Shown: piece by piece, positions 4,944 through 61,002 of the stretch
Layout of the letters: the number at the start of each line of letters is the position of its first letter
How positions within the stretch are numbered: position 1 is the stretch's first letter
Source of the DNA: an uncultured Prevotella sp.
GTDB taxonomy: Bacteria > Bacteroidota > Bacteroidia > Bacteroidales > Bacteroidaceae
DNA length: 61,107 nucleotides
Direction of reading: 5' to 3'
NCBI GenBank assembly: GCA_900550635.1
Contig: URSZ01000001.1
Coordinates: 1 to 61,107, forward strand
Program-made: the position numbers and the translations under genes
Notes under the pieces: model-generated
What the model was told of the DNA's origin: nothing
Databases searched by the model: none
What the model saw: only the letters and a program-made list of their open reading frames with translations

Positions 4944-5060
4944 GCTTCTTGAAAAGTTTCACGGGACGTAAAAAAATTATCTCTGAGATATTTCAAAATA
5001 TGTCTGACATATTTTAAAATACGTCAGACATATTTTCTGCCGCCTCCAACAGGCAGAAGA
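4944..5060. repeat. Mosaic intergenic repeat, copy 1 (reduced copy; flanks poorly conserved)
   Basis: The core is three 21-bp units at about 4972-5036: AAAATTATCTCTGAGATATTTC / AAAATATGTCTGACATATTTT / AAAATACGTCAGACATATTTT. It lies between the phosphatase-family gene and argS. Confidence 0.8.
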
Positions 5061-5127
5061 GACCAAACGTTCCCGCGGCATGCAGCGGTGCCGGCACACG
5101 GAGTTTGCAGCACTTGCGGGACGGCGT

Positions 5128-10516: not shown

Positions 10517-10627
10517 GGCAGCGCGTTCCCCGTGCAAAGGCACAAAGCCATTCCGCCCGGAAACCTTTACTCGGCACACGGCGTAAAACTCCCGTCCTTT
10601 ATTGTCCGTTTATTCAACCGTGTTTTC

Positions 10628-10757
10628 TTACCCGTTTCGGAGGGGGCGAAAAATATGTCTGAGATATTTTAAAATATGTCAGACATAATTCAAAATATGT
10701 CCGACATATTTTTTATTTGCTCCCAAGGGGGTATAAAAAACTGAATAACAATATTCA
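10628..10757. repeat. Mosaic intergenic repeat, copy 3 (hairpin module on the right)
   Basis: CCCGTTTCGGAGGGGG box, three units at about 10649-10712, then TTATTTGCTCCCAAGGGGG. Confidence 0.85.
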
Positions 10758-10856
10758 CATTCCCGCACCCGAAACAGACATTTCCCCGCCTCTTGACGTG
10801 CACCCGGGAGCACACCTCGCGCCAATGCTCTCCAAGCGCACTAACGTGTCCGGTCT

Positions 10857-16310: not shown

Positions 16311-16455
16311 CCCCTTTGCCGCTGAAAAACAGGCATGTTAGATGTGCGCAAAAAAAGGTCGGACATATTTCGAAATATGTGCCTTGAATTTTAAAATATG
16401 TCCGACTAATTTTTTTCTTTCTCCCACCCCCGTAAAATCGTGTCATTTTGGCGCA
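16311..16455. repeat. Mosaic intergenic repeat, copy 4
   Basis: Three units at about 16351-16413, then TTTCTTTCTCCCACCCCCG and an AAAATCGTGTCATTTT hairpin. Confidence 0.8.
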
Positions 16456-18690: not shown

Positions 18691-18719
18691 ACTCCCGCGA
18701 AACATTACCCGCACCCTTT

Positions 18720-18870
18720 CCGGAAAACACAGTTTGCCACCCGGCAAAAAATACGTGCCTTGTATTTCAAAATATGTCCGACATATTTTAAAATATCTCA
18801 GACATATTTTCCGTTTTCTCGGAGAGGCATGTAACTCACTGAAAATCAAGACGCCTTTTTTGTCTGCATA
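18720..18870. repeat. Mosaic intergenic repeat, copy 5
   Basis: Three units at about 18746-18810, then TTTCTCGGAGAGG, CACTGAAAATCAAG and the edge box CCTTTTTTGTCTGC. Confidence 0.85.
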
Positions 18871-21633: not shown

Positions 21634-21790
21634 CCCGCCCGAGAGCAGGAGATATATTATAATGCGTACCCGCAACATTTGCCGGGCACGCATTTTTTAT
21701 ACGCACCTTTTCCGGAAGCCCTGCCGCCACGCGGCAAGGCGGACATTCGCTGCCGCAAAACCCGGGACGGGGAACACCGTTTTTCAACCA

Positions 21791-21965
21791 CGGAAAACGA
21801 AAACTCATTTTCACTCCGTCGCACTCCTCGGGGAGCAAATAAAAATTATGTCTGAGATATTTTAAAATATGTCAGACATATTTCGAATTATGTCAGACAT
21901 ATTTTTGCCCTCCGGAAACCCGCATGAAAACTCGGGGCACAAAAGCTGCCTTTTTTGTCCGTATA
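21791..21965. repeat. Mosaic intergenic repeat, copy 6
   Basis: CGAAAACTCATTTTCAC hairpin, CTCCTCGGGGAGCAAATAAAAA box, three units at about 21841-21905, GCCCTCCGGAAACCCGCATGAAAAC, and the edge box CCTTTTTTGTCCG. Confidence 0.85.
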
Positions 21966-25475: not shown

Positions 25476-25630
25476 ACCCCGGCCCCCTCGGTGCACAAGA
25501 GCGCAACCGCATTCGCGGCGGCACGCACGGCCAATGCGGACAAACAAGGCACCGCGCAGGGCGCATTCCGCCGTAGCGGAAAATGAAAACTACGGCACCG
25601 TTTTTCCACCCCGCCGTACACCGCTTTTTT

Positions 25631-25770
25631 CCAGCCGTTTGAAACGCCCGAAAATATGTCTGACATAATTCGAAATATGTCAGACATATTTTAAATTATC
25701 TCAGAGATATTTTTTCTTTTCTCCCAAGGGGGTAGAAAACTCTCCGATACAACGCGGACAAACACGGACG
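25631..25770. repeat. Mosaic intergenic repeat, copy 7 (may extend left to about 25575)
   Basis: CCAGCCGTTTGAAACGCCCG box, three units at about 25651-25714, TTCTTTTCTCCCAAGGGGG, and the edge box GCGGACAAACACGG. Confidence 0.85.
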
Positions 25771-30636: not shown

Positions 30637-30776
30637 CGTTTTTTGTCTGCCGCCCCGTAAAGGGGGTCAGAGGAAATTAAAATCAGGTCTGAGAAAATTC
30701 AAAATATGTCTGACATATTTCGAAATATGTCAGACATATTTTTGCCCACCCCTAAAAGGGTGTTTTTCAGCGCCCG
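30637..30776. repeat. Mosaic intergenic repeat, copy 8
   Basis: Edge box CGTTTTTTGTCTGCC, three units at about 30679-30743, then TGCCCACCCCTAAAAGGGTG. It lies between convergent genes. Confidence 0.85.
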
Positions 30777-31844: not shown

Positions 31845-33506
31845 ATGGAACAAACCATAAACGTATTCTGCAAGAACAACGGCCAGTCGGTCGAAATGCC
31901 CGTGGGAAGCACGGCCATAGAGGCTTACAACGCTTTCGGGCTGGACATGCCCTACGGCGTTACCTGTGCACGGGTGAACAACAAGTCGGAAAGCCTGCAT
32001 TTCCCCCTTTTCAAGGACAGCGACGTGGAGTTTCTCGACGTGTCCGACCCTTCGGGCATGAGAACCTACACGCGCTCGCTTTTCTTCGTGCTCTACAAGG
32101 CCGTTGAGGACCTATTCCCCAAAACAACGGTGCGTATCGACACGCCCGTGTCGAACGGTTACTATTGCCGCCTGCTCATAGGGCGCGATGTCACCCCCGC
32201 CGACGTGGCGCGCCTGCGCAGCCGCATGGAGGAAATCATTGCCGCCGACATGCCGTTCCGCCGCATTGTGTGCCGCACCGACGAGGCCGTGGAACGCTTC
32301 CGCAACCTCGGGCTCGAAAGCAAGGCAAAGCTGCTCAAAAGCGTGGGAACGCTCTACACCACTTACTTCATGCTCGACGGCACGATGGACTACTACTACG
32401 GCTCGCTGCTTCTCTCAACGGGGCAGCTCAAGGTGTTCGGCCTGGAGGAATACCACGACGGCGTGCTGCTGCGCGTGCCCGACCCGTCGTGCCCCGACAG
32501 GCTCCTGCCCATGGTGAAGCAGGAAAAGATGTTCGAAGTGTTCCGCGAACACCACGAGTGGCAGCATATCGTGGGGCTGAACTCGATAGGCGACCTGAAC
32601 GAGGTATGCGTAAACGGACACACAAACATGCTCGTGAACGTTTCCGAAGCACTGCAGGAAAAGAAGATAAGCCGCATTGCCGACATGATTGCAGCCAACC
32701 CCGACATACACGTGGTGCTCATTTCCGGGCCTTCGTCGAGCGGCAAGACCACCTTCAGCAAACGCCTTTCGGTACAACTCATGGCCTGCGGCCTGAAACC
32801 GTACCCCATATCTATCGACGATTACTTCGTAGACCGCGACAAGACACCCAAGCTCCCCGACGGCGAGTACGACTTCGAGTCGCTCTATGCCGTAAACATA
32901 CCTTTGCTCTCGCAACACCTCAACGACCTTATCGCCGGCAGGGAAGTGGAACTGCCGCGCTTCAACTTCCAGACCGGCAAGAGCGAACGCAGCGGGCAAT
33001 ACCTGAAACTCGACCCCAACATGATTCTCATAATGGAAGGCATACACGCCCTGAACCCCGAACTGACGCCGCAAATTCCCGACAGCAGCAAGTTCCGCGT
33101 GTACGTCTCGGCCTTGACATCCATACTGCTCGACGACCACAACTACATACCTACCACCGACAACCGCCTGCTGCGCCGCATTGTGCGCGACTACAAATAC
33201 CGCGGCTACTCCGCGCGCGACACCATAAAACGCTGGCCGAGCGTAAGGGCGGGCGAGGCAAAATGGATTTTCCCCTACCAGGAAAACGCCGACGTGATGT
33301 TCAACTCGGCGCTGCTCTTCGAACTGGCGGCGCTGCGGCCGCAGGCCATGCCGCTGCTTGAACAGGTGGACGAACGCTACGAGGAATATTCCGAGGCATA
33401 CCGCCTGCACAAGTTCCTCTCGTACATCAAACCCATACCCATCGACGGCCTGCCGCCCACGTCGTTGCTGCGCGAATTCCTCGGCGGCAGCACATTCAAC
33501 TACTGA
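31845..33506 (+). CDS. Nucleoside (uridine)-kinase-family P-loop protein with an N-terminal TGS-like / tRNA-synthetase second-additional-like region
   Basis: 553 aa. Walker A ISGPSSSGKTTFSKRL sits in the C-terminal half, and the architecture is common in Bacteroidales. Confidence 0.75.
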   Translation: MEQTINVFCKNNGQSVEMPVGSTAIEAYNAFGLDMPYGVTCARVNNKSESLHFPLFKDSDVEFLDVSDPSGMRTYTRSLFFVLYKAVEDLFPKTTVRIDTPVSNGYYCRLLIGRDVTPADVARLRSRMEEIIAADMPFRRIVCRTDEAVERFRNLGLESKAKLLKSVGTLYTTYFMLDGTMDYYYGSLLLSTGQLKVFGLEEYHDGVLLRVPDPSCPDRLLPMVKQEKMFEVFREHHEWQHIVGLNSIGDLNEVCVNGHTNMLVNVSEALQEKKISRIADMIAANPDIHVVLISGPSSSGKTTFSKRLSVQLMACGLKPYPISIDDYFVDRDKTPKLPDGEYDFESLYAVNIPLLSQHLNDLIAGREVELPRFNFQTGKSERSGQYLKLDPNMILIMEGIHALNPELTPQIPDSSKFRVYVSALTSILLDDHNYIPTTDNRLLRRIVRDYKYRGYSARDTIKRWPSVRAGEAKWIFPYQENADVMFNSALLFELAALRPQAMPLLEQVDERYEEYSEAYRLHKFLSYIKPIPIDGLPPTSLLREFLGGSTFNY

Positions 33507-33533
33507 CGGCACGCCGCACGCGCAACGTGCACC

Positions 33534-33756
33534 GCTCACCGGCAGACAAAAACGGAGCGAAAAACGAAGCGGGAAAACAGCCGCCCGGGGCGCGGAAAAG
33601 TGAAAACTGATTTTCACGCCGTTAAACCCACATGGGAGCAAAGAAAAAATATGTGCCTTGTATTTCGAAATCCGAGCCACTAATTTTAAAAAGCAAGCCA
33701 CTAATTTTTCGCCCCCCGGAAACCCTTTCCGAAACCGCCCCGGAAAGGCCGACAAA
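33534..33756. repeat. Mosaic intergenic repeat, copy 9; left member of the 223-bp direct repeat flanking the R-M cassette
   Basis: Aligned by eye to 36525-36747 (offset 2991). It is identical except for one C/T difference (CCCCGGAAAGG vs CCCTGGAAAGG). The three units are at about 33644-33709. Confidence 0.95.
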
Positions 33757-33876
33757 ATGCAGACACCGCGAACCTTTTGCAGGCAGCCGACGTTTTTATA
33801 AGGATTTGTACGACATGTTTTGCACGAACAGGGTAACTTTACGGCATATTATCATGAAAGCATAAAGCAGTGCATT

Positions 33877-34389
33877 TTGGATATTTGGGATAAGGACAAG
33901 CGTTCCGCCGTAATGGCTAAAATCCACAGCAAGGACACCAAGCCCGAGTTGCTTGTACGCCGTTACTTGTGGCAGCGGGGATACCGTTACCGCAAAAACG
34001 TGCGCGGTTTGCCGGGGACTCCCGACATTGTTTTACGGAAATATGGCGTGGTTATTTTCATCCATGGTTGTTTTTGGCACGGGCACGACGTTGACGGGCA
34101 CATACCGCAGACCAACAGCCTATTCTGGAAAGAAAAAATTGAACGCAACAAATTGCGTGACGAGCGCAACAAGGCGGAACTGAAGCGGTTGGGTTGGGGC
34201 GTGATGACCATTTGGGAATGTCAACTGAAACCTGCCGTGCGCGAACAGACTTTGCTCGAAATGGAATATTGGATTAACCATTCCTATTTGGAACGCCTTA
34301 GGATGAAAACTGGAAAGACGTATGGCGAAACAGCTTGCCGCAGCGTCATGGCCGCCGAGGACGAAACCGTTTACGGCAAGGACGGCTAA
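33877..34389 (+). CDS. vsr: Very-short-patch repair endonuclease
   Basis: DKDKRSAVMAKIHSKDTKPE ... PGTPDIV ... IFIHGCFWHGH ... WGVMTIWECQL is the Vsr pattern. The start is ambiguous: TTG at 33877 best matches the E. coli Vsr N-terminal spacing, and the alternatives are TTG at 33820 or ATG at 33913. Confidence 0.9.
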   Translation: MDIWDKDKRSAVMAKIHSKDTKPELLVRRYLWQRGYRYRKNVRGLPGTPDIVLRKYGVVIFIHGCFWHGHDVDGHIPQTNSLFWKEKIERNKLRDERNKAELKRLGWGVMTIWECQLKPAVREQTLLEMEYWINHSYLERLRMKTGKTYGETACRSVMAAEDETVYGKDG

Positions 34390-34391
34390 CG

Positions 34392-35114
34392 CTACCGGTA
34401 TTTGCCCTCTATCTCCGACCAGCGCGGTATAGACAGTCTTTTTCCATAAAATTTTTGGTATGATTGCAACAAGTCGGCCAGCCACGTGCCGGCTTGGTTG
34501 TGCGTCTTGGGGTTTTGGTACACTGTTTCCTGCATTGCCGAAATGAAATCCTCCAGGCAATCGAAAGGCTTGAACTTGCAAGCCTTTGATGAGAACCAAA
34601 CGGCGGGACGTATCTTGTGTACCACATTGTCCTTGATTTGCAGGTTCAACGGCCATTTTTCCATGCTGCGGCACATGCCCCACAAGTTTTCAAGCCACAA
34701 ACGTTTGATAGTAACATACCCGTCGTCAGACATGTCATATCCAAAAACCAAGTATTTGCAATAAAGCATATAAGGCTTCTCCTTTATTTCAGCTTGGAAG
34801 CTGTTGAAATCAGCAATGTCGAAAGCGGGCGACTTGCTGTTGTTGAACGCCTTAACCTCAAGCAAATCTGCCGTTGTATCTTCGGGGTTCAAATAAAAGT
34901 CGGGCGGCATTTGGCTGTTGGGGTTAGGCTTGTAGTCAATGCCTTTCTTCCGCAGCCAGCCTTCGAGCCATTCCTGCATGATGTTGCCTACTACATCGCG
35001 CTGTTTGACAATAATATCAACATCACCCAAATAAAAGCGTATTTGTCCTTTTACTTCAAGGATTTTATCGTCATCTACTAATTTCCGGTAAAGTTCTTCT
35101 GCTGTTAATTTCAT
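34392..35114 (-). CDS. Type II restriction endonuclease, PD-(D/E)XK-like; specificity unknown
   Basis: 240 aa, immediately downstream of the m5C methyltransferase on the same strand. The candidate catalytic motif is PPDFYL ... DLLEVKAF. The function rests on context plus that motif. Confidence 0.65.
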   Translation of the reverse strand: MKLTAEELYRKLVDDDKILEVKGQIRFYLGDVDIIVKQRDVVGNIMQEWLEGWLRKKGIDYKPNPNSQMPPDFYLNPEDTTADLLEVKAFNNSKSPAFDIADFNSFQAEIKEKPYMLYCKYLVFGYDMSDDGYVTIKRLWLENLWGMCRSMEKWPLNLQIKDNVVHKIRPAVWFSSKACKFKPFDCLEDFISAMQETVYQNPKTHNQAGTWLADLLQSYQKFYGKRLSIPRWSEIEGKYR

Positions 35115-35125
35115 GGTTAGAATTT

Positions 35126-36427
35126 TTATAGGTTCAAATAAACGTCCAACAAGCGGCCGGACACTGCTTTTATTACCGGCACGGCTACCGTGTTGCCCAA
35201 AAGGTCATAACCCTCTTTTACGGGTATATCGAAGACATAATCGTCGGGATAGCCGAAAAGACGGAGACCTTCCGTTAGCGTAAGCGTGCGCAAGCCGCCG
35301 TTATCTGCAACGAACAGTTTCTGCATATCCATGGCCACAAGCGTAGGAGCGACATCGTTTGGCGACAATACCTTGCTTACTTCAAAGCTCAATTTGCCTG
35401 TTACTATGTTATACCCCAAAGGAAGGTTCGGGTCTTGTTCCCTGTAAAATCTCGTCCTGCCGTCAATCAAAGTTTCTTGTACCAATGCTTTGGGGTGTTC
35501 TTTCTTAACATATCCTTTGTGAACAAGGTCTTCTAACATATCTTCCAAATCCGGGCTGCTGTTGAATGTGGATATTTGCTGCAACGTCAGTGGCATACCG
35601 TCCATCCATGCAATGCCGAACTCTTCGGCCCATTTCTTTTTACGTCTCTCTTTCAACAGCTGGTTAAGCAATCTTTTTTGGTTTTCGGTAACTTTACCTT
35701 TAAGACCTATGTCCCAACTGTGGATGTTGTCTTTGCCGCCACGTTTGTCTTTGATTGCCTTGCCGTAAAGTTGTTCTATGGAGTAAGTTTTCAAAAGAGC
35801 ATCAATGAAAGGGCTTTTCACGGTTGGAAGTCCGTGTTCAAGGACGCTTTTTAAACTGCGTTCATATGGTTTGAAACCAGTTAACGAGGGCTTACATTTC
35901 AACGTTCCTGCTATGTAAACCCGCTTACGTTCTTGCGGAAGCCCGAAATAACGTGAATTAAGGCACGCCCATTCGACTTTATACCCCAGATTTTCCAATC
36001 GGTCTAATATAGTTTCCAGTGTGCGGCCTATTTTCTTTGTCTTGTCAATCTTGTCGTGGTTTATTAAACCCTCAACGTTTTCCAATAGGAACGCAGCAGG
36101 CCTTTTTTCCGACAAAATACGTTCTACGTCAAAAAAAAGTGTTCCGCGTGTATCCATGAACCCGAGCCTTTTCCCCGCTGCCGAAAAAGCTTGGCAAGGG
36201 AATCCTGCCAATAAAAAATCAAAATCCGGGATTTCACTTACAGGTATTTTTGTAATGTCGCCATGGATTTCTTCGCCGGGGTGGTTTTGTTTAAGCACTG
36301 CAATTGCTGCCGGTTTGATTTCCGACGTAAAGACACACTCGGCCTTTACGCCGCGTTCAGCCGCCGCCAGTTCCAAACCTTTGCGTATTCCGCCTATGCC
36401 TGCAAACAAATCTATGAACTTTATCAT
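35126..36427 (-). CDS. DNA (cytosine-5)-methyltransferase
   Basis: Motif I FIDLFAGIGG, motif IV GFPCQAFS, motif VI ENVEGL and motif VIII QERKRVYI. The ATG at 36427 is preferred to the track's TTG at 36445. Confidence 0.95.
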   Translation of the reverse strand: MIKFIDLFAGIGGIRKGLELAAAERGVKAECVFTSEIKPAAIAVLKQNHPGEEIHGDITKIPVSEIPDFDFLLAGFPCQAFSAAGKRLGFMDTRGTLFFDVERILSEKRPAAFLLENVEGLINHDKIDKTKKIGRTLETILDRLENLGYKVEWACLNSRYFGLPQERKRVYIAGTLKCKPSLTGFKPYERSLKSVLEHGLPTVKSPFIDALLKTYSIEQLYGKAIKDKRGGKDNIHSWDIGLKGKVTENQKRLLNQLLKERRKKKWAEEFGIAWMDGMPLTLQQISTFNSSPDLEDMLEDLVHKGYVKKEHPKALVQETLIDGRTRFYREQDPNLPLGYNIVTGKLSFEVSKVLSPNDVAPTLVAMDMQKLFVADNGGLRTLTLTEGLRLFGYPDDYVFDIPVKEGYDLLGNTVAVPVIKAVSGRLLDVYLNL

Positions 36428-36524
36428 TTTATGAATCGCTATCAACTCCTTTACGCTTACAAAAATACAACAAAGCTTGCTATTTGGGATTTTCCGCTTG
36501 TAATTTGTTACGGTCTCGTGCTCT

Positions 36525-36747
36525 GCTCACCGGCAGACAAAAACGGAGCGAAAAACGAAGCGGGAAAACAGCCGCCCGGGGCGCGGAAAAGTGAAAACTG
36601 ATTTTCACGCCGTTAAACCCACATGGGAGCAAAGAAAAAATATGTGCCTTGTATTTCGAAATCCGAGCCACTAATTTTAAAAAGCAAGCCACTAATTTTT
36701 CGCCCCCCGGAAACCCTTTCCGAAACCGCCCTGGAAAGGCCGACAAA
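36525..36747. repeat. Mosaic intergenic repeat, copy 10; right member of the 223-bp direct repeat flanking the R-M cassette
   Basis: See copy 9. The three units are at about 36635-36700. Confidence 0.95.
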
Positions 36748-36975
36748 CGCGGACACCATTTTACGCTGCTGCAAAACAGGTGAAGAATCATTCGCTTTCT
36801 GCCGCGGCCTGCGAAAAATTATTTGCAAATTCACGGCCCGGCGTTCGGCATTATTCCGCGGAAATCCATATTTTTGTAAAATATGTTTAACTCCTTACGC
36901 TTTCCCGCTCCTCAGCGACGGGAAGCGGGCCTATTTCTGTTGCCACGATATAAAGGACTTTAAAAAGAACATGCC

Positions 36976-37464
36976 ATGAAAAGGAAATTCTTGTTCACAC
37001 TGCTGCTCCTTGCGGCCGCATTCTGCAGCCCTGCCCGGGCCATGGACGTGTACGTGTACATAAACGGGAGCTACGTACCCGTAAACGTTTCCGAAAACAT
37101 CTACAAGATTGTCTTCGAAGATGAATACACACATTTCATCACAGCCTCGGGCGAGACGGCCACGTTAAGGAACGAAGCCTTCTCGTTCCTCACTTTCCGC
37201 AAGCTGGAAACGCCCGTAGGCATAAACGCCGCAAAGGCCGAAGCCGTCACCATAACCTATGAAAACGAAGGCATACGCGTGAAAAGCGCAAGCGTGCCGG
37301 CCAACGTAAGGATTATCGACACGGCCGGGAACGTAATGGCCGACATAACGCCCCGCAACGCCGACATGTTCTTCTCGCTGTGCGGAATGCCGGCCGGAGT
37401 GTATATTGTAACAGCCGGCGACGGGAAAAACGTAACCGTAAAGAAAATAACGAAAAACAAGTAA
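36976..37464 (+). CDS. Small secreted protein with a T9SS C-terminal sorting domain
   Basis: Signal peptide MKRKFLFTLLLLAAAFCSPARA and the C-terminus VRIIDTAGNVMADI...GVYIVTAGDGKNVTVKKITK. Confidence 0.65.
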   Translation: MKRKFLFTLLLLAAAFCSPARAMDVYVYINGSYVPVNVSENIYKIVFEDEYTHFITASGETATLRNEAFSFLTFRKLETPVGINAAKAEAVTITYENEGIRVKSASVPANVRIIDTAGNVMADITPRNADMFFSLCGMPAGVYIVTAGDGKNVTVKKITKNK

Positions 37465-39742: not shown

Positions 39743-39915
39743 CATCCCGCGGCAGGTAGCCCCGCAAACACACAAACGCGCAAACACCGCAACAGCAGGC
39801 GAGGCCATGCAAAGGCCGCGCCTGCATTTTTTCCTAACCGGTGTGCCTGTTGCGGGTGCTTGGGGGCGCAAAAACAGCCCGTCCCGCCGCACCGCAAAGC
39901 GCGTCTCCCGCGCGG

Positions 39916-40149
39916 TGCGGACAAACGCCCGCATTTGTCCGCATTTTCAGGAGCATTTTCAAACGGGTTTTCAGGGGGCAAAAAATATGTCCGACATATT
40001 TTGAAATAGGTCTGACATATTTTAAAATACAAGGCACATATTTTTTCTTTGCTCCCATGTGGGGTAAACGCACTGAAAATCAGTTTTCACTTTTCCGCGC
40101 CCCGAACGGCCGTTTTTCCGCCCCGGTTTTCGCTCCGTTTTTGTCTGCC
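39916..40149. repeat. Mosaic intergenic repeat, copy 11; full-length, same subfamily as copies 9/10 but inverted
   Basis: Left-edge hairpin GCGGACAAACGCCCGCATTTGTCCGC, CAAACGGGTTTTCAGGGGG box, three units at about 39980-40044, TTCTTTGCTCCCATGTGGGG, GTGAAAA-type hairpin, and right-edge box CCGTTTTTGTCTGCC. The reverse complement of the right half is close to 33541-33650. Confidence 0.9.
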
Positions 40150-40222
40150 GCGGCAACGGCGGCACGGCATAAGCATGTTGAATATAGTACCTCCGGCGCG
40201 TTGCAGTTTCTCGCCATAATGG

Positions 40223-42830: not shown

Positions 42831-43000
42831 ACACTGAAAAACGAAAACCGTTTTTCGACTTTTTACCCTCCCCTTGAAGCCAAGAAAAAATATGTCTGAG
42901 ATATTTTAAAATATGTCTGACATAATTCGAAATATGTCAGATGTATTTTTTATTTGCTCCCACTCGGGTTAAATATGCAGAAAACCAGTTTTCATTTTCC
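42831..43000. repeat. Mosaic intergenic repeat, copy 12
   Basis: Three units at about 42885-42950, then TTATTTGCTCCCACTCGGG and a GAAAACCAGTTTTC hairpin. Confidence 0.85.
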
Positions 43001-43131: not shown

Positions 43132-43359
43132 TATGTATTCCTTCGTGGTTATCAATGACATCAGTTAATAATATGTGATTTCGGGGACAGCTATTTCACC
43201 ATGAATGGCAATAAAACGCCATTGTCACTATCTCCTCATCACGTTAATTATCACTCAAATAAGTCTTTCAAAGAACCTATTTATACATGCAAAAGTACAA
43301 AGAAGATGGGTAATCGCAAAGTTTTGTGTTTCCTATTTTGCTGCCTCATAATAAAATCG

Positions 43360-43367
43360 TACCTTTG
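43360..43367 (+). promoter_or_regulatory. -7 promoter box (TAnnTTTG) for the abi gene
   Basis: TACCTTTG lies 70 nt upstream of the ATG at 43437. Confidence 0.45.
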
Positions 43368-43436
43368 CAACAACAGATTCCGCCACGCTTCCCGCAGAAC
43401 AGCGTACCAGGGCGGAACTTTTGCTTTATATAGGTT

Positions 43437-44333
43437 ATGGAATACACAAAACAGCCGATAGATTACCCACAGCAAATCCAAAAGCTGAAAGAACGGGGAT
43501 TGATAATCAAAGACGAAAGACAAGCATTAGAACAACTCCGCATTATTAGCTATTTCCGTTTGGCGAATTACCTGCGACCAATGGAAGAAAATAAGGAAAA
43601 TCATATTTTCAAGCCAAACAGCACATTTGAGAATGCCCTAAACCTTTATTATTTCGACAAAGAACTAAGGGCTTTGATATTTACAGCCATCCAAAGCATT
43701 GAAATAGCCTTACGGACAAAAATCATACATCACGTTTCGTTGAAGTATGGCGCATTTTGGTTTACGGACATTAATCTTTGTACCAACCAACAAATGTTTG
43801 CTGAAAACCTGAACCACATTCAACAGGAATTGCAACGTTCAAAAGAAGATTTCATTTTAGAACACTTCGCAAAATATACAAGTCCGACATTTCCGCCTGT
43901 ATGGAAAACATTGGAAGTCGTTTCTTTCGGTACGCTCTCCAAATTATACTATAATCTGTCAGACAAAGCACTAAAGAAACAGATTGCACAAGATTTGAAT
44001 GTACCACAACATCTTTATTTTGAAAGTTGGATAAAATCCACTACCGTATTACGAAATTGCATTGCTCATCACGCACGTATTTGGAATCGCCGTTTCCCCA
44101 ATATGCCACAACTCCCTAAACGGATGCCGAAAACATGGATAAGCAACACACACCTCCCCATGATGAAACTTTATGCCCAATTATGTTGCATTACCTACTT
44201 GCAGAACAGCATCCACCCTAACAATTCTTTCAAACAAAAGCTGATTGCACTTTTAGAAGCACATCCAAATGTTGATGTAAAAGCGATGGGCTTTCCTACA
44301 AATTGGCGTGAAGAACCCTTGTGGAAAGACTAA
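43437..44333 (+). CDS. Abi_2 (AbiD/AbiF-like) abortive-infection family protein
   Basis: 298 aa. The N-terminus QQIQKLKERGLIIKDERQALEQLRIISYFRLANYLRP and the later AHHARIWNR match the Abi_2 family pattern as I recall it. Confidence 0.8.
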   Translation: MEYTKQPIDYPQQIQKLKERGLIIKDERQALEQLRIISYFRLANYLRPMEENKENHIFKPNSTFENALNLYYFDKELRALIFTAIQSIEIALRTKIIHHVSLKYGAFWFTDINLCTNQQMFAENLNHIQQELQRSKEDFILEHFAKYTSPTFPPVWKTLEVVSFGTLSKLYYNLSDKALKKQIAQDLNVPQHLYFESWIKSTTVLRNCIAHHARIWNRRFPNMPQLPKRMPKTWISNTHLPMMKLYAQLCCITYLQNSIHPNNSFKQKLIALLEAHPNVDVKAMGFPTNWREEPLWKD

Positions 44334-44489
44334 CAAATATTCAAAAATGTTTCTTTGTATAGGCTTGTGAATATATAGAAATACCAATATTTGATGTTTG
44401 TTCTGCAAATCACAATATATCAATAAGTTATGCTATTTTCAAATATTCACTTCTGATTGTTTTTGGATATCTTTATTGATATAGAAAAG

Positions 44490-44519
44490 AAAAGGTTGGC
44501 CGTTGCTGACCAACCTTTT
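44490..44519. terminator. Bidirectional intrinsic terminator between convergent genes
   Basis: AAAAGGTTGG-CCGTTGCTGA-CCAACCTTTT: the stem is flanked by an A-run and a T-run. Confidence 0.65.
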
Positions 44520-44530
44520 GGCATAATTTA

Positions 44531-45052
44531 TTATTTTGTTTTATCAACATAAGGACTGAACGTATATGTCAACAGTTCTCCATTGTTTAGTTCTACCTGA
44601 AATGTCGCTTTCTTTGTTACCTGTAATCTGCGCAAAAGGTCAATAGCATCTTGGTAATCTGCAAGATTAACTGCATTACCTATGGGCCGTTCTGTGTTTA
44701 TAAGGATGTTTTCTCCATCTAACATTAAACTTACAATTGTCATTTTTTCATTGAATGACGGATCTCTTGGATTTTCAGTTTTTGAAGCATCAGCAAGTCT
44801 AAGATACGCCATAGTATGGACATGCGTAGTAACTGCGAATACCAACACAATGGGAATGTTGTTAATCATATGATAATTATCACTATTTATAAATACCCTT
44901 TGTTGATCGTTATTAACAGTAAACCATCCTTTCTGTTTGTAGAAATCTGAAATTTCACTACTATCAACAGTGTTTGAGGTACGGTTGCCACACGCCGTGG
45001 TAAAGACGATAGTCAGTGCTATCATACTTAAGAAGTAAGCAAACTTTTTCAT
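44531..45052 (-). CDS. Hypothetical lipoprotein
   Basis: MKKFAYFLSMIALTIVFTTACGN: a signal peptide plus a lipobox-like Cys. I recognise no family. The ATG at 45052 is preferred to the TTG at 45070. Confidence 0.6.
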   Translation of the reverse strand: MKKFAYFLSMIALTIVFTTACGNRTSNTVDSSEISDFYKQKGWFTVNNDQQRVFINSDNYHMINNIPIVLVFAVTTHVHTMAYLRLADASKTENPRDPSFNEKMTIVSLMLDGENILINTERPIGNAVNLADYQDAIDLLRRLQVTKKATFQVELNNGELLTYTFSPYVDKTK

Positions 45053-45070
45053 CGCAAATGTTATTACCAA

Positions 45071-45313
45071 TTATACACCTTGCTTAATTTTCTCAGCTTT
45101 GATTCCTTTAACGAAAGAAGCCAACTCGTTGACTAAAAATTTTTCTTCTTCTGAAGAATCTTCTGTTGCAGTATGATAGCATTGGGAAATAGTTTCAATG
45201 ATATTTCCACATAGCTCAACTGTAAGCGTAAGATTTTCCTTGCAGAGTCCGTAAAGGCTTTTAATAGCCAATTCTTTCTGTTCTTCCTGTGCCATAATAC
45301 GTTTTTTTAGCAT
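45071..45313 (-). CDS. Hypothetical small acidic protein (80 aa)
   Basis: An ORF directly upstream of, and co-directional with, the lipoprotein gene. I recognise no family. Confidence 0.45.
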   Translation of the reverse strand: MLKKRIMAQEEQKELAIKSLYGLCKENLTLTVELCGNIIETISQCYHTATEDSSEEEKFLVNELASFVKGIKAEKIKQGV

Positions 45314-45665
45314 CTATGGCCCTGCGATGCGGTTTAATACTTACTTTAATATTGGTAGGCATAAAAGAGAAAAGCGAGGCCGTCATTCTGCCTCATCTAC
45401 TGCGTAGGGTTGGACTCCCTGTAATATGGATAAGGAGAACGAACAGCCCCACTTGGATGTATTTCGTGCTGATATACGAATACAAACCAAGAGAGCGTCC
45501 TTCCCACATATTCCGATATTACTTTTGTAAAGTGTCCAATTTTACGCAGTCGGAATAAGCGAAAATGCGCTTTCTTTCAATATGTCTGCACACTATTTGC
45601 TAATAGTGCGTAACAAAGATACGTACTTTCTTTGGAAGAACGCTCAATAATCCAACAAATTAACT

Positions 45666-46399
45666 CTAAAAATCTAATAGGTTGTATGTTTCAAGCAACT
45701 CTTTTTCTCTTATGTCCAAGTATATTTTAGTAACAGACACATAGGAATGATTGAAAAGCTCTGATAACCTCATCAACGCCATATTAGCATTCTCACCTGC
45801 TGACTCAAAAACCTTTCGCCCAAAAGTCTTGCGCATACTATGAGTAGGGAAATGCTCGATTTTAAGATTGTACTTTTTCTTGATTCTCTTAAATAATATA
45901 TTGATTCTTTGTGTTATATACTATTTTTGGGGTAATCCATCAAGAACTGCCTGAACTTATGTAACGGACAGTAAGCATTATCACGAACTGACACGCCGAC
46001 CTTGCCTAACTTGTATTCCTGCTCTATTGTTTCTATGGCATAGTTCACAAAGTCTGTCTTTGCCGATTTGCCGTTTGGTCTACCCTGTACAAATGCCCGA
46101 AGATTATCTATTGTGAGTCTGCTGTTCTTCTGCATGAACTCATAAATCTGTTCGTCTATGGTACGCCGCTTCTGTTCCAACTGATTATTCAATCTTGCAA
46201 TTTGAAGGTGTTTCCTGCTTACGGCTTTGTTGGCCTCATCCCAGTAAGCCTCCTCAATCCAAACACCCGTTTCCGTCCGTGCGTGTTTCGTGCCCATCAC
46301 GTACTCAAGATAGATTGGCAACTTTCCGTTCGTGTCGGGCTTCCTGTCCTTACGCAAATAAAACTTGCCCGTCAGTTTGCTTGCCTTTACTCTTCCCAT
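45666..46399 (-). pseudogene. Tyrosine recombinase (Bacteroidetes-type integrase), internally deleted and frameshifted
   Basis: 45914-46399 encodes only the N-terminal arm-binding and SAM-like part (161 aa, KFYLRKDRKPDTNGKLPIYLEY...). A different frame at 45666 to about 45905 encodes only the C-terminal end (...HFPTHSMRKTFGRKVFE...HSYVSVTKIYLDIREKEL, carrying the box II His/Arg and the catalytic Tyr). The middle of the catalytic domain is missing. Confidence 0.8.
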
Positions 46400-46561
46400 A
46401 ATTTACTATCCGTTTTTTAGGAATATGCGATGCGAAGATAACGATTTTGGGGACAGTTATTATGCCATAAAAGGCGGTAAAACGAGAAAGTGGGGATTTT
46501 TGTTGTCCCCACTTCCGTTGATTTTCAGTCTGTTGTTCAATACTTTACGCCGACTTTCGGC

Positions 46562-46783
46562 TTAATATTCGTCCTCGTTGAAGAGGAAATCTTCTTTTGT
46601 TGGGTAATCCGGCCATACGTCTTCGATGGTTTCGTAGACATCGCCTTCGTCTTCGAGTTCCTGCAGGTTTTCTATCACTTCGAGTGGAGCTCCCGAACGC
46701 ATGGCGTAGTCTATCAGTTCGTCTTTAGTTGCGGGCCAGGGCGCATCTTCAAGTTTCGAGGCTAGTTCTAATGTCCAATACAT
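46562..46783 (-). CDS. DUF2795 domain protein
   Basis: MYWTLELASKLEDAPWPATKDELIDYAMRSGAPLEVIENLQELEDEGDVYETIEDVWPDYPTKEDFLFNEDEY. The ATG at 46783 gives the usual length of about 73 aa. Confidence 0.85.
   Translation of the reverse strand: MYWTLELASKLEDAPWPATKDELIDYAMRSGAPLEVIENLQELEDEGDVYETIEDVWPDYPTKEDFLFNEDEY
46564..46583. repeat. att-like direct repeat, right (inside the intact DUF2795 3' end)
   Basis: See 43112-43131. Confidence 0.75.
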
Positions 46784-47669: not shown

Positions 47670-47747
47670 TAATTTTGTTACGTGTTTTTCATAGTATTAG
47701 ATTTAAGGTTAACATTAAGATTAGGGTTACGGAGGTAACCCTTTTTT
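47670..47747 (+). ncRNA. Candidate orphan small transcript: -7 box, six TTANNN hexamers, intrinsic terminator
   Basis: TAATTTTG at 47670-47677. TTAGAT TTAAGG TTAACA TTAAGA TTAGGG TTACGG at 47697-47732. GGGTTAC-GGAG-GTAACCC followed by TTTTTTATT at 47724-47747. No co-directional CDS is nearby. Confidence 0.3.
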
Positions 47748-47926
47748 ATTTCCGGCCAACCTTATCCCCGTATTTGTGTATCATGACAGGCTGCCGCGCG
47801 GCCGTGCGGACGCAGCGGCAGGGTGGTTTCCATTTCCATAGTTAGGCGCGATAATTTGTTTTTGATACGCGATGAATTTCGTATCCACGAGTGGAAAATT
47901 TGTGTCTTAAAAAGGCGTTTTCCGGT

Positions 47927-48086
47927 GCGGAAAAATGAAAACTGGTTTTCAGCGCATTTATCCCACATGGGAGCAAATAAAAAATACAAGGCACATATTT
48001 CAAAATATGTCTGACCTATTTTAAAATATCTCAGACATATTTTTGCGAGGGTCGAAACGGGGTGTCCGGAATAAAGACAAACAGCG
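47927..48086. repeat. Mosaic intergenic repeat, copy 13
   Basis: ATGAAAACTGGTTTTCA hairpin, TCCCACATGGGAGCAAATAAAAAA box, three units at about 47979-48044, and an edge box AAGACAAACAGCG. Confidence 0.85.
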
Positions 48087-54269: not shown

Positions 54270-54340
54270 TTTCCGCCAGGCTCGTTGCTATTCGGGAACA
54301 GACATATAAAGAACAAAAAAACAACCCTTGAAAACGGACA

Positions 54341-54525
54341 TCCCGAAGGCGAAAAAGTGAAAACTAATTTTCAGTGCGTTATACCCCCTTGGGAGAAAAG
54401 AAAAAATACAAGGCACATATTTCAAAATAGGTCTGACATATTTTAAAATATGTCAGACCTATTTTTTACCCCTTGAAAACCCGTTTGAAACTTGCCCCTA
54501 AAGTGCAGACAAATACGGACTCGCG
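54341..54525. repeat. Mosaic intergenic repeat, copy 14 (full-length; hairpin on the left)
   Basis: GTGAAAA-CTAA-TTTTCAG hairpin, CCCCTTGGGAGAAAAGAAAAAA box, three units at about 54400-54466, CCCCTTGAAAACCCGTTTGAAAC, and the edge box GCAGACAAATACGGACTCGCG. Confidence 0.9.
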
Positions 54526-60633: not shown

Positions 60634-60815
60634 CGCGAGTCCGTATTTGTCTGCACTTTTGGGGCAATTTTCAAACGGGTTTTCAGGGGGTAAAAAATAG
60701 GTCTGAGATATTTCAAAATATGTCTGACATATTTTGAAATATGTGCCTTGTGTTTTTTCTTTGCTCCAAAGGGAGTATAACGCACTGAAAATTAGTTTTC
60801 ACTTTTTCCTTCCGA
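60634..60815. repeat. Mosaic intergenic repeat, copy 15; same subfamily as copy 14 but inverted
   Basis: CGCGAGTCCGTATTTGTCTGC edge box, CAAACGGGTTTTCAGGGGG, three units at about 60692-60757, TTCTTTGCTCCAAAGGGAG, and CTGAAAATTAGTTTTCAC. Its reverse complement aligns along the whole length of copy 14. Confidence 0.9.
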
Positions 60816-61002
60816 AAAGTGCCATTTTCCGCCTTGTTTTTTCCACTTTCTCACGTATCACCCACAGCCTGCCGGCGGCAAACGCGAGATACCGGCATAC
60901 AACTGAACTGCACGCATTTATCCCAAAACGGTCATTAGGGAATTAAGCAGTAACGTCAAGTGCGGTTCCTTCGCCAACTTACGCACTTCTGCCGCCACCT
61001 GT

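What the first reader, a model, noticed from the sequence alone, without database searches (positions are those of the whole stretch)
33534..36747. Vsr + REase + m5C-MTase cassette bracketed by 223-bp direct repeats that differ at a single base
33534-33756 and 36525-36747 (offset 2991 bp) are both copies of the mosaic intergenic element. Reading them side by side, they are identical except for one C/T difference. Other copies of the family in this window differ from one another at many positions.

The 2768 bp between them (33757-36524) is visibly lower in GC. It contains only vsr (+) convergent with a REase-MTase operon (-). The pattern fits insertion of a restriction-modification unit with a long target duplication. 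It also fits capture between two element copies followed by homogenisation. R-M units flanked by long direct repeats are an established mode of R-M mobility. The repeats also provide a ready substrate for precise loss of the cassette by homologous recombination, leaving one element copy.
Basis: partly seen in the sequence, partly recalled or inferred. Interest (0 to 1): 0.7.

Follow-up and report, generated by a model that had tools for sequence, protein, structure and literature searches.

The report
Restriction-modification cassette inserted with element duplication
A three-gene DNA-defence unit (cutting enzyme, protecting methylase, mismatch-repair nuclease) entered one intergenic spot of an uncultured human-gut Bacteroidales bacterium and duplicated a 242-bp repeat element on both sides, which is a clean new example of an already described way for such units to move.

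Summary
33534-33756 and 36525-36747 are 223 nt with one mismatch. The true duplicated segment is 33526-33767 / 36517-36757 (242/241 nt, 6 differences).

Between the copies lie 2749 bp at 45.6% GC (host 52.9%). They carry vsr, an NgoBV/NlaIV-family REase and an m5C MTase. There is no integrase, transposase, tRNA or terminal inverted repeat.

Conspecific metagenome contigs include eight empty sites with exactly one element copy. At least four cannot be assembly collapses. [quoted passage not shown]

Cassette diversity is about 10-fold below that of the flanking genes. Occupied and empty strains interleave, so the cassette is young and spreads or is lost by recombination.

GGNNCC is the most depleted short palindrome in host DNA (69 observed, 218 expected) and is absent from the cassette. 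This fits the predicted specificity.

The near-identity of the repeats is not universal. Other strains differ at 0-30 core positions. The two copies change in parallel, and variant patches match a paralogous element 6 kb away, so the copies are homogenised by gene conversion.

Verdict: real, a new member of a known kind, moderate-low interest.

The parts
31845..33506 (+). Left flanking core gene: 553-aa PRK/uridine-kinase-family protein
   Evidence: Pfam PF00485. Present next to both occupied and empty sites.
33526..33767 (.). Left copy of the duplicated mosaic intergenic element (242 nt).
   Evidence: Its 3' end GACAAAATGCAGACACC is the same in 14 of 15 occupied strains and is also an allele at empty sites (L007, L010).
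33768..33876 (+). Cassette-specific left end, upstream of vsr
   Evidence: Absent from empty sites. It has no match elsewhere in the window or in other loci.
33877..34389 (+). vsr, very-short-patch-repair endonuclease (170 aa from TTG 33877)
   Evidence: PF03852, TIGR00632, PADLOC Vsr. The start matches the gene calls on other contigs. The FIHGCFWHGH motif is visible in the translation.
34392..35114 (-). Type II restriction endonuclease of the NgoBV/NlaIV family (240 aa). Predicted specificity GGNNCC.
   Evidence: PF09564 matched 1-238/238, 6.9e-110. PADLOC REase_II. The family is assigned to NgoBV and NlaIV in PMC3424549.
35126..36427 (-). C5-cytosine DNA methyltransferase (433 aa from ATG 36427)
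   Evidence: PF00145 and TIGR00675. Motifs FAGIGG, GFPCQ and ENV are in the translation. Homologues are also 433 aa.
36428..36516 (-). Cassette-specific right end, upstream of the M-R operon. It contains TATTTTTG (36460-36467, minus strand), which matches the Bacteroidetes -7 promoter consensus TAnnTTTG.
   Evidence: That this is a promoter is an inference from the known consensus, not a test.
36517..36757 (.). Right copy of the duplicated element (241 nt).
   Evidence: The 5' end is CGTGCTCT in 13 of 14 occupied strains. The 3' end is GAC-AAACGCGGACACC in 13 of 14.
36976..37464 (+). Right flanking core gene: 162-aa protein with a T9SS sorting domain
   Evidence: TIGR04183. Present next to both occupied and empty sites.
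39934..40150 (-). Closest paralogous element copy (79.5% identical). Likely donor of conversion patches seen in alleles at the cassette locus.
   Evidence: Exact 24-38-nt patches are shared with variant alleles.

Best explanation
A compact type II restriction-modification unit inserted once into the kinase/T9SS-gene spacer of an uncultured human-gut Bacteroidales species. The unit has a GGNNCC-type NgoBV/NlaIV-family endonuclease, a cognate m5C methyltransferase, and a convergent Vsr nuclease that repairs T:G mismatches from m5C deamination. It came from a lower-GC donor and carries no recombinase. The insertion duplicated a 242-bp target that corresponds to essentially one whole copy of a resident interspersed mosaic element. 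This is 'insertion with long target duplication'.

Shown: one origin (identical junctions), genuine empty sites, no mobility genes or terminal inverted repeats, cassette diversity 10-fold below that of the flanks, occupied and empty strains interleaved, and parallel change of the two repeat copies.

Inferred:
- The primary joining was illegitimate or microhomology-mediated (CGTGC at the right junction).
- The cassette then spread between strains by homologous recombination through its flanks.
- The two repeats are kept alike by intragenomic gene conversion. The same process shuffles patches among all family members.
- The repeats allow precise loss or tandem amplification, and loss is opposed by post-segregational killing.
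For: Empty sites:
- Eight contigs have one element copy and a 478-480-bp spacer.
- Four of them (L002, L004, L007, L010) carry the junction ...[AG]CAGACACC / GCGGACACC + [AT]TTTTACGC with a left-copy-type 3' end. That junction does not exist in occupied genomes, so these four cannot be assembly collapses.

Occupied sites:
- The window and 15 other contigs from different samples and assemblers are occupied. Every junction these contigs cover is the same.

No mobility machinery:
- No integrase, transposase or tRNA.
- No terminal inverted repeats, and the cassette ends are unique.

Foreign and young:
- GC is 45.6% against 52.9%.
- Nucleotide diversity is 0.0007 in the cassette against 0.006-0.009 in flanking genes.
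- Nearest neighbours in flanking sequence mix occupied and empty strains.

Intact and functional-looking:
- The cassette variants seen across the occupied contigs are mostly synonymous. Three are amino-acid changes (two in vsr, one in the MTase).
- There is one nonsense lineage.

Specificity:
- GGNNCC has obs/exp 0.32, z = -9.7, the most depleted of 64 short palindromes.
- It occurs 0 times in the cassette against 6.3 expected.
- NlaIV recognises GGNNCC, and GGNN5mCC methylation is documented.

Concerted evolution of the repeats:
- Left and right copies differ less within strains than between strains (7.9 against 15.8 differences; permutation p = 0.00035).
- The window and its near-clonal relative L009 differ at 7 sites in 7.5 kb of flank. 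They also differ at the same 7 positions in both repeat copies.
- Variant patches are identical to the paralogue at 39934-40150.

Precedent: Furuta 2010, PMC2853133.
Against: - The mechanism of the primary insertion is not observable from sequence.
- The two copies carry fixed, different allele types at their 3' ends in nearly all occupied strains. A pure duplication of one allele does not predict this without an early extra recombination event.
- The duplication boundaries lie within about 2-15 nt of the element family's own boundaries. Random staggered breaks do not explain that.
- Four of the eight empty sites could in principle be assembler collapses.
- No donor genome was found. The closest foreign cassettes are only about 73% identical in DNA.
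- Enzyme activity and methylation were not measured.
- The strain sample was picked by exact protein identity, which deflates non-synonymous diversity in the kinase and the REase.
Confidence: 0.8

Rival explanations
1. The direct repeats at this locus were made by homologous integration, not by duplication at a break. A circle, or a linear fragment broken within the repeats (an 'ends-in' substrate), carried the cassette plus one element copy. It recombined with the resident element in a Campbell-type or gap-repair reaction, so the repeat length equals the length of shared homology. The same reaction would regenerate matching repeats each time the cassette moves into a new strain.
For: - The repeat spans almost exactly the whole element.
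- The cassette-proximal ends are fixed: right copy 5' CGTGCTCT, left copy 3' AAAATGCAGACACC. The distal and central parts vary like resident alleles.
- Left and right copies share strain-specific alleles, including rare ones.
- The repeats themselves could produce a 2991-bp circle.
Against: - It only moves the question of the first insertion to another genome or locus.
- Paralogues in the window are at most 80% identical, which is poor substrate for homologous recombination.
- The right copy's 3' end is nearly invariant (13 of 14) although empty-site alleles are split about 50:50. Repeated ends-in transfers into diverse recipients do not predict this.
- No circle or second insertion site was found. 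All 24 longest contigs carrying the REase place it at this locus.
Confidence: 0.15
2. The cassette was captured between two element copies that already lay side by side. Those copies were later homogenised.
For: - The element family is abundant, with about 13 loci in 61 kb.
- It undergoes gene conversion.
Against: - Every empty site has exactly one copy, and its spacer length equals the occupied length minus 2991.
- A sister species has neither the cassette nor a tandem pair after the kinase gene.
Confidence: 0.03
3. The unit is a transposon, an integrative element or a MITE-bounded composite, moved by a recombinase acting in cis or in trans.
For: - R-M units are often linked to integrases or transposases.
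- A fragment encoding an Arm-DNA-binding domain lies 9 kb away.
Against: - There is no recombinase gene in the cassette or within 9 kb.
- There are no terminal inverted repeats, no short target-site duplication and no tRNA.
- The Arm fragment belongs to a separate AbiD island with its own roughly 20-bp junction repeat.
- Homologous cassettes in other genomes lack flanking repeats.
- Empty sites keep one element copy, so the repeats are target DNA, not element ends.
Confidence: 0.02

Closest known systems
R-M gene insertion with long target duplication (Nobusato et al. 2000; Furuta, Abe & Kobayashi 2010, PMC2853133)
   Same: - R and M genes lie in a short insert.
- There are no mobility genes.
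- The direct repeats are far longer than transposon target duplications; published H. pylori cases reach about 400 bp.
- Both repeats align to a single sequence at a conspecific empty site.
- The insert has a deviant GC content.
   Different: - The host is a gut Bacteroidales, a group absent from the published list.
- The unit also carries vsr.
- The duplicated target is a full copy of a multi-copy interspersed element. Furuta et al. filtered out high-copy repeats.
- Population data here add evidence of a single origin, spread by recombination, and concerted evolution of the repeats.
NlaIV / NgoBV type II R-M systems of Neisseria (GGNNCC; GGNN5mCC methylation)
   Same: - The REase matches PF09564 over its full length.
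- The partner is an m5C MTase.
- The genome shows strong GGNNCC avoidance.
   Different: - The REase family is widely spread. The closest non-self relative found is 87% identical and comes from metagenomes, not from Neisseria.
- Specificity is inferred, not measured.
Dcm-Vsr and other m5C-MTase/Vsr pairings
   Same: A Vsr gene is packed tightly against an m5C MTase system, presumably to repair T:G mismatches from deamination of the methylated cytosine.
   Different: - Here vsr is convergent with the REase gene (2-nt gap), not overlapping the MTase gene as in E. coli dcm-vsr.
- The M-R-Vsr trio recurs as a module in at least three other genomic contexts.
REP/BIME-type interspersed palindromic mosaics as insertion targets (PMC1525189)
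   Same: The target is an intergenic, multi-copy mosaic of short palindromic modules. Such elements are known insertion hot spots.
   Different: - No RAYT or IS is involved here.
- The element is duplicated, not interrupted.
- Whether the element is truly REP/BIME-like is untested.

Membership tests
R-M insertion with long target duplication (Furuta 2010 criteria) | The inserted sequence contains both R and M gene homologues | tested here: met
   RE_NgoBV and DNA_methylase lie inside 33768-36516.
R-M insertion with long target duplication (Furuta 2010 criteria) | Insert shorter than 20 kb | tested here: met
   2749 bp of cassette-specific DNA.
R-M insertion with long target duplication (Furuta 2010 criteria) | Target duplication longer than 30 bp, with both repeats aligning to one sequence at an empty site in a conspecific genome | tested here: met
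   The repeats are 242/241 nt. Eight empty sites have one copy, and four of them are provably not assembly collapses.
R-M insertion with long target duplication (Furuta 2010 criteria) | No linked mobility genes, and not a tRNA or site-specific att repeat | tested here: met
   No integrase or transposase among neighbouring genes. No tRNA in the window. No terminal inverted repeats.
R-M insertion with long target duplication (Furuta 2010 criteria) | The repeat is not a high-copy repeat that merely happens to flank the genes | tested here: inconclusive
   The repeat belongs to a family with about 13 loci per 61 kb. However, the locus holds one copy when empty, and paralogues are at most 80% identical. 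Chance flanking is therefore excluded, although the original screen would have filtered this case out.
NgoBV/NlaIV-type type II R-M (GGNNCC) | REase belongs to PF09564 | tested here: met
   366.6 bits, positions 1-238 of 238.
NgoBV/NlaIV-type type II R-M (GGNNCC) | Recognition and methylation of GGNNCC | tested here: inconclusive
   The support is indirect. GGNNCC is the most depleted of 64 palindromes (obs/exp 0.32) and is absent from the cassette. No enzymatic or methylome data are available.
C5-cytosine DNA methyltransferase | Conserved motifs I (FxGxG), IV (PCQ) and VI (ENV), and a family HMM score above cutoff | tested here: met
   FAGIGG, GFPCQ and ENV are in the translation. TIGR00675 scores 336.6 bits against a cutoff of 100.65.
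Vsr endonuclease | Family HMM score above the curated cutoff | tested here: met
   TIGR00632 scores 136.4 bits against 97.85. PF03852 scores 115.5 against 27.
Transposon / composite MITE element | Terminal inverted repeats and a short target-site duplication, with the repeats absent from the empty site | tested here: not met
   No terminal inverted repeats. The repeats are present once at empty sites.
Integrase-mediated island / integron cassette | A linked tyrosine or serine recombinase and a short conserved att core | tested here: not met
   No recombinase lies within 9 kb. The repeat is 242 nt and variable.

The most novel reading that the evidence does not exclude
The duplication matches a whole copy of an interspersed, hypervariable, gene-converting mosaic element. 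The two copies also track each other's strain-specific alleles. The most novel reading is that this element family acts as a recombinase-free landing pad. Cassettes bounded by element copies would excise or break within them and re-enter any strain's resident element by ends-in gap repair, regenerating matched repeats at each transfer. That would be a general homology-guided cassette mobility system in gut Bacteroidales, not a one-off illegitimate insertion.
Probability: 0.1. Interest if true: 0.6.

Novelty: new member of a known kind. Interest (0 to 1): 0.33.

Why it matters
This is a well-resolved natural example of recombinase-free R-M mobility in an abundant but uncultured human-gut Bacteroidales.
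- It has genuine empty and occupied alleles in the same species.
- It has a dated-by-diversity single origin.
- It carries a genome-wide restriction-site avoidance signature.
- It extends the 'long target duplication' class beyond the Proteobacteria-dominated published list.
- It shows that the flanking repeats are not passive scars. They are kept alike by gene conversion, which preserves the substrate for loss or amplification.

The presence/absence polymorphism also predicts strain-level differences in the GGNNCC methylome and in barriers to phage and gene transfer.

Tried and rejected
- **Organism identification.** It returned nothing closer than 70% identity, namely mislabelled MAGs followed by Prevotella and Paraprevotella at about 65%. 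Cluster look-up gave no organism names. A LeuRS search gave only 'Bacteroidaceae bacterium' at 78%. The first attempt failed on an off-by-one coordinate.
- **Outgroup.** The sister-species locus (L172) has different synteny after the kinase gene, so it cannot polarise the element state. L174 and L175 lack the locus.
- **Donor.** The closest foreign cassettes are about 73% identical in DNA and have no flanking repeats.
- **Wider repeat scan.** Seventy-one NgoBV-family loci were scanned for flanking repeats. Only this species showed them, plus one unrelated 37-bp case with a possible integrase and one 1-kb duplicate that does not flank the R-M genes.
- **RNA families.** Rfam found nothing in the repeats or the cassette.
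- **Transposon structure.** No terminal inverted repeats were found, and the cassette ends match nothing else.
- **Promoter and terminator scan.** The sigma-70/terminator scan was no better than shuffled sequence.
- **MTase pseudogene idea.** Many contigs call the MTase as 231 aa. This is a gene-caller artefact, because the DNA is identical to the window.
- **Second element-flanked island.** The AbiD island at 43132-46563 was examined. It is not bounded by element copies.
Full report
**1. Observation**

Reading outward shows that homology continues on both sides.
- On the 5' side the copies read CGTGCACC (from 33526) and CGTGCTCT (from 36517).
- On the 3' side they read GACAAAATGCAGACACC (to 33767) and GAC-AAACGCGGACACC (to 36757).

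The duplicated segment is therefore 33526-33767 / 36517-36757, 242/241 nt with 6 differences. In one other strain (L111) the right copy begins CGTGCGCC, the form found at empty sites. This shows that CGTGC is part of the repeat and not cassette DNA. The cassette-specific DNA is 33768-36516 (2749 bp).

The element family is real. A 16-mer from it occurs 15 times in the window against 0.96 expected, and an 18-mer hairpin occurs 7 times against 0.08 expected. The closest paralogue in the window (39934-40150, minus strand) is only 79.5% identical. The two flanking copies are therefore exceptional within the family.

**2. Gene content**

The cassette holds three genes.
- **vsr**, 33877-34389 (+), 170 aa from a TTG start. 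It matches PF03852 and TIGR00632 above cutoff.
- **REase**, 34392-35114 (-), 240 aa. It matches PF09564 RE_NgoBV over its full length (6.9e-110).
- **m5C methyltransferase**, 35126-36427 (-), 433 aa. It matches PF00145 and TIGR00675, and motifs FAGIGG, GFPCQ and ENV are present.

vsr and the REase gene converge with a 2-nt gap. GC is 45.6%, against 52.9% for the rest of the window. The neighbouring core genes are 57-58%, with GC3 of 75-80%.

Several features of mobile elements are missing.
- There is no integrase or transposase in the cassette or within 9 kb.
- There is no tRNA in the whole window.
- The cassette ends have no terminal inverted repeats, and they match nothing else in the window or the other fetched loci.

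**3. Related genomes**

Exact-protein look-ups with the flanking kinase and with the REase returned long contigs of the same species from many human-gut metagenomes. A JGI/ENA scan added three more.

*Empty sites.* Eight contigs are empty: L001, L002, L004, L005, L006, L007, L008 and L010. In these the kinase gene is followed after 478-480 bp by the T9SS-domain gene, and the spacer holds exactly one element copy. The occupied spacer is 3469 bp, and 3469 - 2991 = 478.

An assembler could in principle skip a repeat-bounded loop and create a false empty site. Four of the eight cannot have arisen that way. L002, L004, L007 and L010 carry a left-copy-type 3' end joined directly to the right flank. 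That junction does not exist in occupied genomes.

*Occupied sites.* Including the window, sixteen contigs are occupied. L009 and L016 are the same record. L003 and L113 appear to come from one individual (P61). Wherever these contigs cover a junction it is the same, although two of them (L111, L112) end before one junction, so there was a single insertion event.

*Sister species.* A sister species (LeuRS 89% identical) has neither the cassette nor the same downstream genes.

*Host.* The host could not be named. It is an uncultured Bacteroidales whose nearest named relative is 'Bacteroidaceae bacterium', at 78% LeuRS identity.

**4. Age and spread**

Nucleotide diversity among 13 occupied strains is 0.0007 in the cassette. 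In the radical-SAM gene, the kinase gene and the DUF5722 gene of the same strains it is 0.0067-0.0086. One caveat applies: the sample was chosen by exact identity of the kinase or REase protein. vsr and the MTase were not constrained and are equally uniform.

In flanking sequence, occupied and empty strains are each other's nearest neighbours in several cases. The cassette is therefore younger than the species' core diversity, and it has moved onto, or been lost from, many backgrounds by homologous recombination.

Most cassette variants are synonymous, and three are amino-acid changes (two in vsr, one in the MTase). One lineage (L003/L113) has a nonsense mutation in the REase, Y223*.

The MTase calls of 231 aa on many contigs are a gene-caller artefact. 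They are caused by an antisense ORF that runs into the right repeat. The DNA itself is unchanged.

**5. Specificity**

PF09564 is the NgoBV/NlaIV family (PMC3424549). NlaIV cuts GGNNCC, and the cognate Neisseria methylation is GGNN5mCC (PMC4676702).
- In the host part of the window GGNNCC occurs 69 times, against about 218 expected under a third-order Markov model (obs/exp 0.32, z = -9.7).
- This is the strongest depletion among 64 four-base palindromes with 0-3 central N.
- The cassette has 0 sites against 6.3 expected, and only 0.2% of simulations give zero.

This fits long exposure of the species to a GGNNCC system, through restriction avoidance, m5C deamination or both. It is the only test of specificity available here.

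**6. The repeats evolve in concert**

The near-identity seen in the window is not general. Over a 204-column core, the left and right copies of a strain differ as follows:
- at 0 positions in five strains (window, L009, L012, L013, L113);
- at 2-6 positions in four strains;
- at 19-30 positions in four strains.

Within-strain left/right differences average 7.9, against 15.8 for left/right pairs taken from different strains (permutation p = 0.00035; shared ancestry is not corrected for).

Three rare allele types are present in both copies of the same strain: the window's own hybrid module arrangement, and those of L013 and L020.

The clearest case is the window against L009. These two strains differ at only 7 sites in 7.5 kb of flank, yet both repeat copies differ between them at the same 7 positions.

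Variant patches at this locus are exact copies of the paralogue at 39934-40150. Examples are TTTTCAGTGCGTTTACCCCACATGGGAGC, the 'alpha' module string, and CCCCCTGAAAACCCGTTTGAAAAT. The family therefore undergoes non-allelic gene conversion. The same process, acting between the two flanking copies, explains the single-base difference in this strain.

**7. What the mechanism is likely to be**

The structure meets the published definition of R-M insertion with long target duplication. That definition requires R and M in the insert, an insert under 20 kb, a duplication over 30 bp, alignment to a conspecific empty site, and no mobility genes (PMC2853133). Repeats of about 400 bp are on record for H. 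pylori. The mechanism of that class is not established in the literature.

Here the right junction shows a CGTGC microhomology, which suggests illegitimate joining. Two features are not explained by a simple staggered break.
- The duplication ends within about 2-15 nt of the element family's own boundaries.
- The two copies carry different, nearly fixed allele types at their 3' ends. Both types also occur at empty sites.

A homologous 'ends-in' or Campbell-type integration of cassette plus element would explain both features, and I keep it as the main rival. It does not explain the first insertion, and it predicts more variation at the right copy's distal end than is seen.

Other explanations are contradicted by the data.
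- Capture between two pre-existing copies is contradicted by the empty sites.
- Transposon or integrase models fail their defining features.

The same M-R-Vsr trio occurs in at least three other genomic contexts in other bacteria, at about 73% DNA identity and without flanking repeats. The trio is therefore a travelling module, and the long repeats are specific to this insertion.

**8. Verdict**

It is a new member of a known kind, not a new kind. The additions are the Bacteroidales host, the vsr passenger, a multi-copy mosaic element as the duplicated target, and population evidence for a single origin, recombinational spread and concerted evolution of the repeats.

Noticed in passing
window 4974-5062, 10597-10784, 16351-16439, 18694-18836, 21789-21931, 25630-25739, 30680-30768, 39929-40150, 42833-42996, 47927-48069, 54283-54513, 60641-60828: An abundant intergenic mosaic element occurs at about 13 loci in 61 kb, in both orientations. 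It is built from 21-nt modules (AAAAT + ~11-nt core, often palindromic, + ATTTT) next to conserved hairpins (GTGAAAACTGATTTTCAC; CCCACATGGGAGCAAAGAAAAAA). At orthologous loci the module cores differ completely between strains that are otherwise about 99% identical. The variant patches match paralogous copies, so non-allelic gene conversion appears frequent. The layout resembles REP/BIME elements. Its function is unknown.
   Followed up: partly
window 43132-46563: A 3.4-kb island of 38% GC carries AbiD (Abi_2, 43437-44333) and a fragment encoding an Arm-DNA-binding (integrase N-terminal) domain (45914-46399). It is absent from L002, L006 and L008, where the junction shows an overlap of about 20 bp. 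Other strains carry different genes after priA (FRG, SMODS/DncV-like, AAA_22/nSTAND3), so this is a defence-island hot spot.
   Followed up: partly
window 47682-47751 (+): Rfam match to RF04319, the Bacteroidetes FopS family of paralogous sRNAs (72.6 bits against a gathering score of 56). It lies about 180 nt upstream of an element copy.
   Followed up: no
whole window (host DNA): GGNCC is the second most depleted short palindrome (90 observed against 170 expected, z = -6.2). This hints at a second R-M specificity (GGNCC type) in the history of this species.
   Followed up: no
L003 and L113 (window equivalent 34446): A nonsense mutation, Y223*, removes the last 18 residues of the REase in two contigs that seem to come from one individual (P61 / P61old). 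The MTase stays intact. This may be early decay toward an orphan methylase.
   Followed up: partly
window 36263-36601 (+), antisense to the MTase 5' end: A 112-aa antisense ORF runs into the right repeat. On many public contigs it makes the gene caller truncate the MTase to 231 aa, although the DNA is identical. Automated annotation would wrongly report a broken MTase.
   Followed up: yes
L017, right repeat copy (window equivalent about 36666-36686): Exactly one 21-nt module is deleted. This is consistent with slippage or unequal exchange between modules.
   Followed up: no
window 39877-39930: A stretch of about 55 bp beside the paralogous element is replaced by unrelated sequence in several strains (L001, L007, L008, L011, L015, L018). 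This is another hypervariable spot tied to the element family.
   Followed up: no
L155 2383-2419 and 7623-7659: Another NgoBV-family R-M unit from a human-gut metagenome (REase 58% identical) is bracketed by 37-bp direct repeats that are 92% identical. The repeats enclose M, R and a 412-aa ORF that may be an integrase, so this is probably site-specific integration.
   Followed up: no
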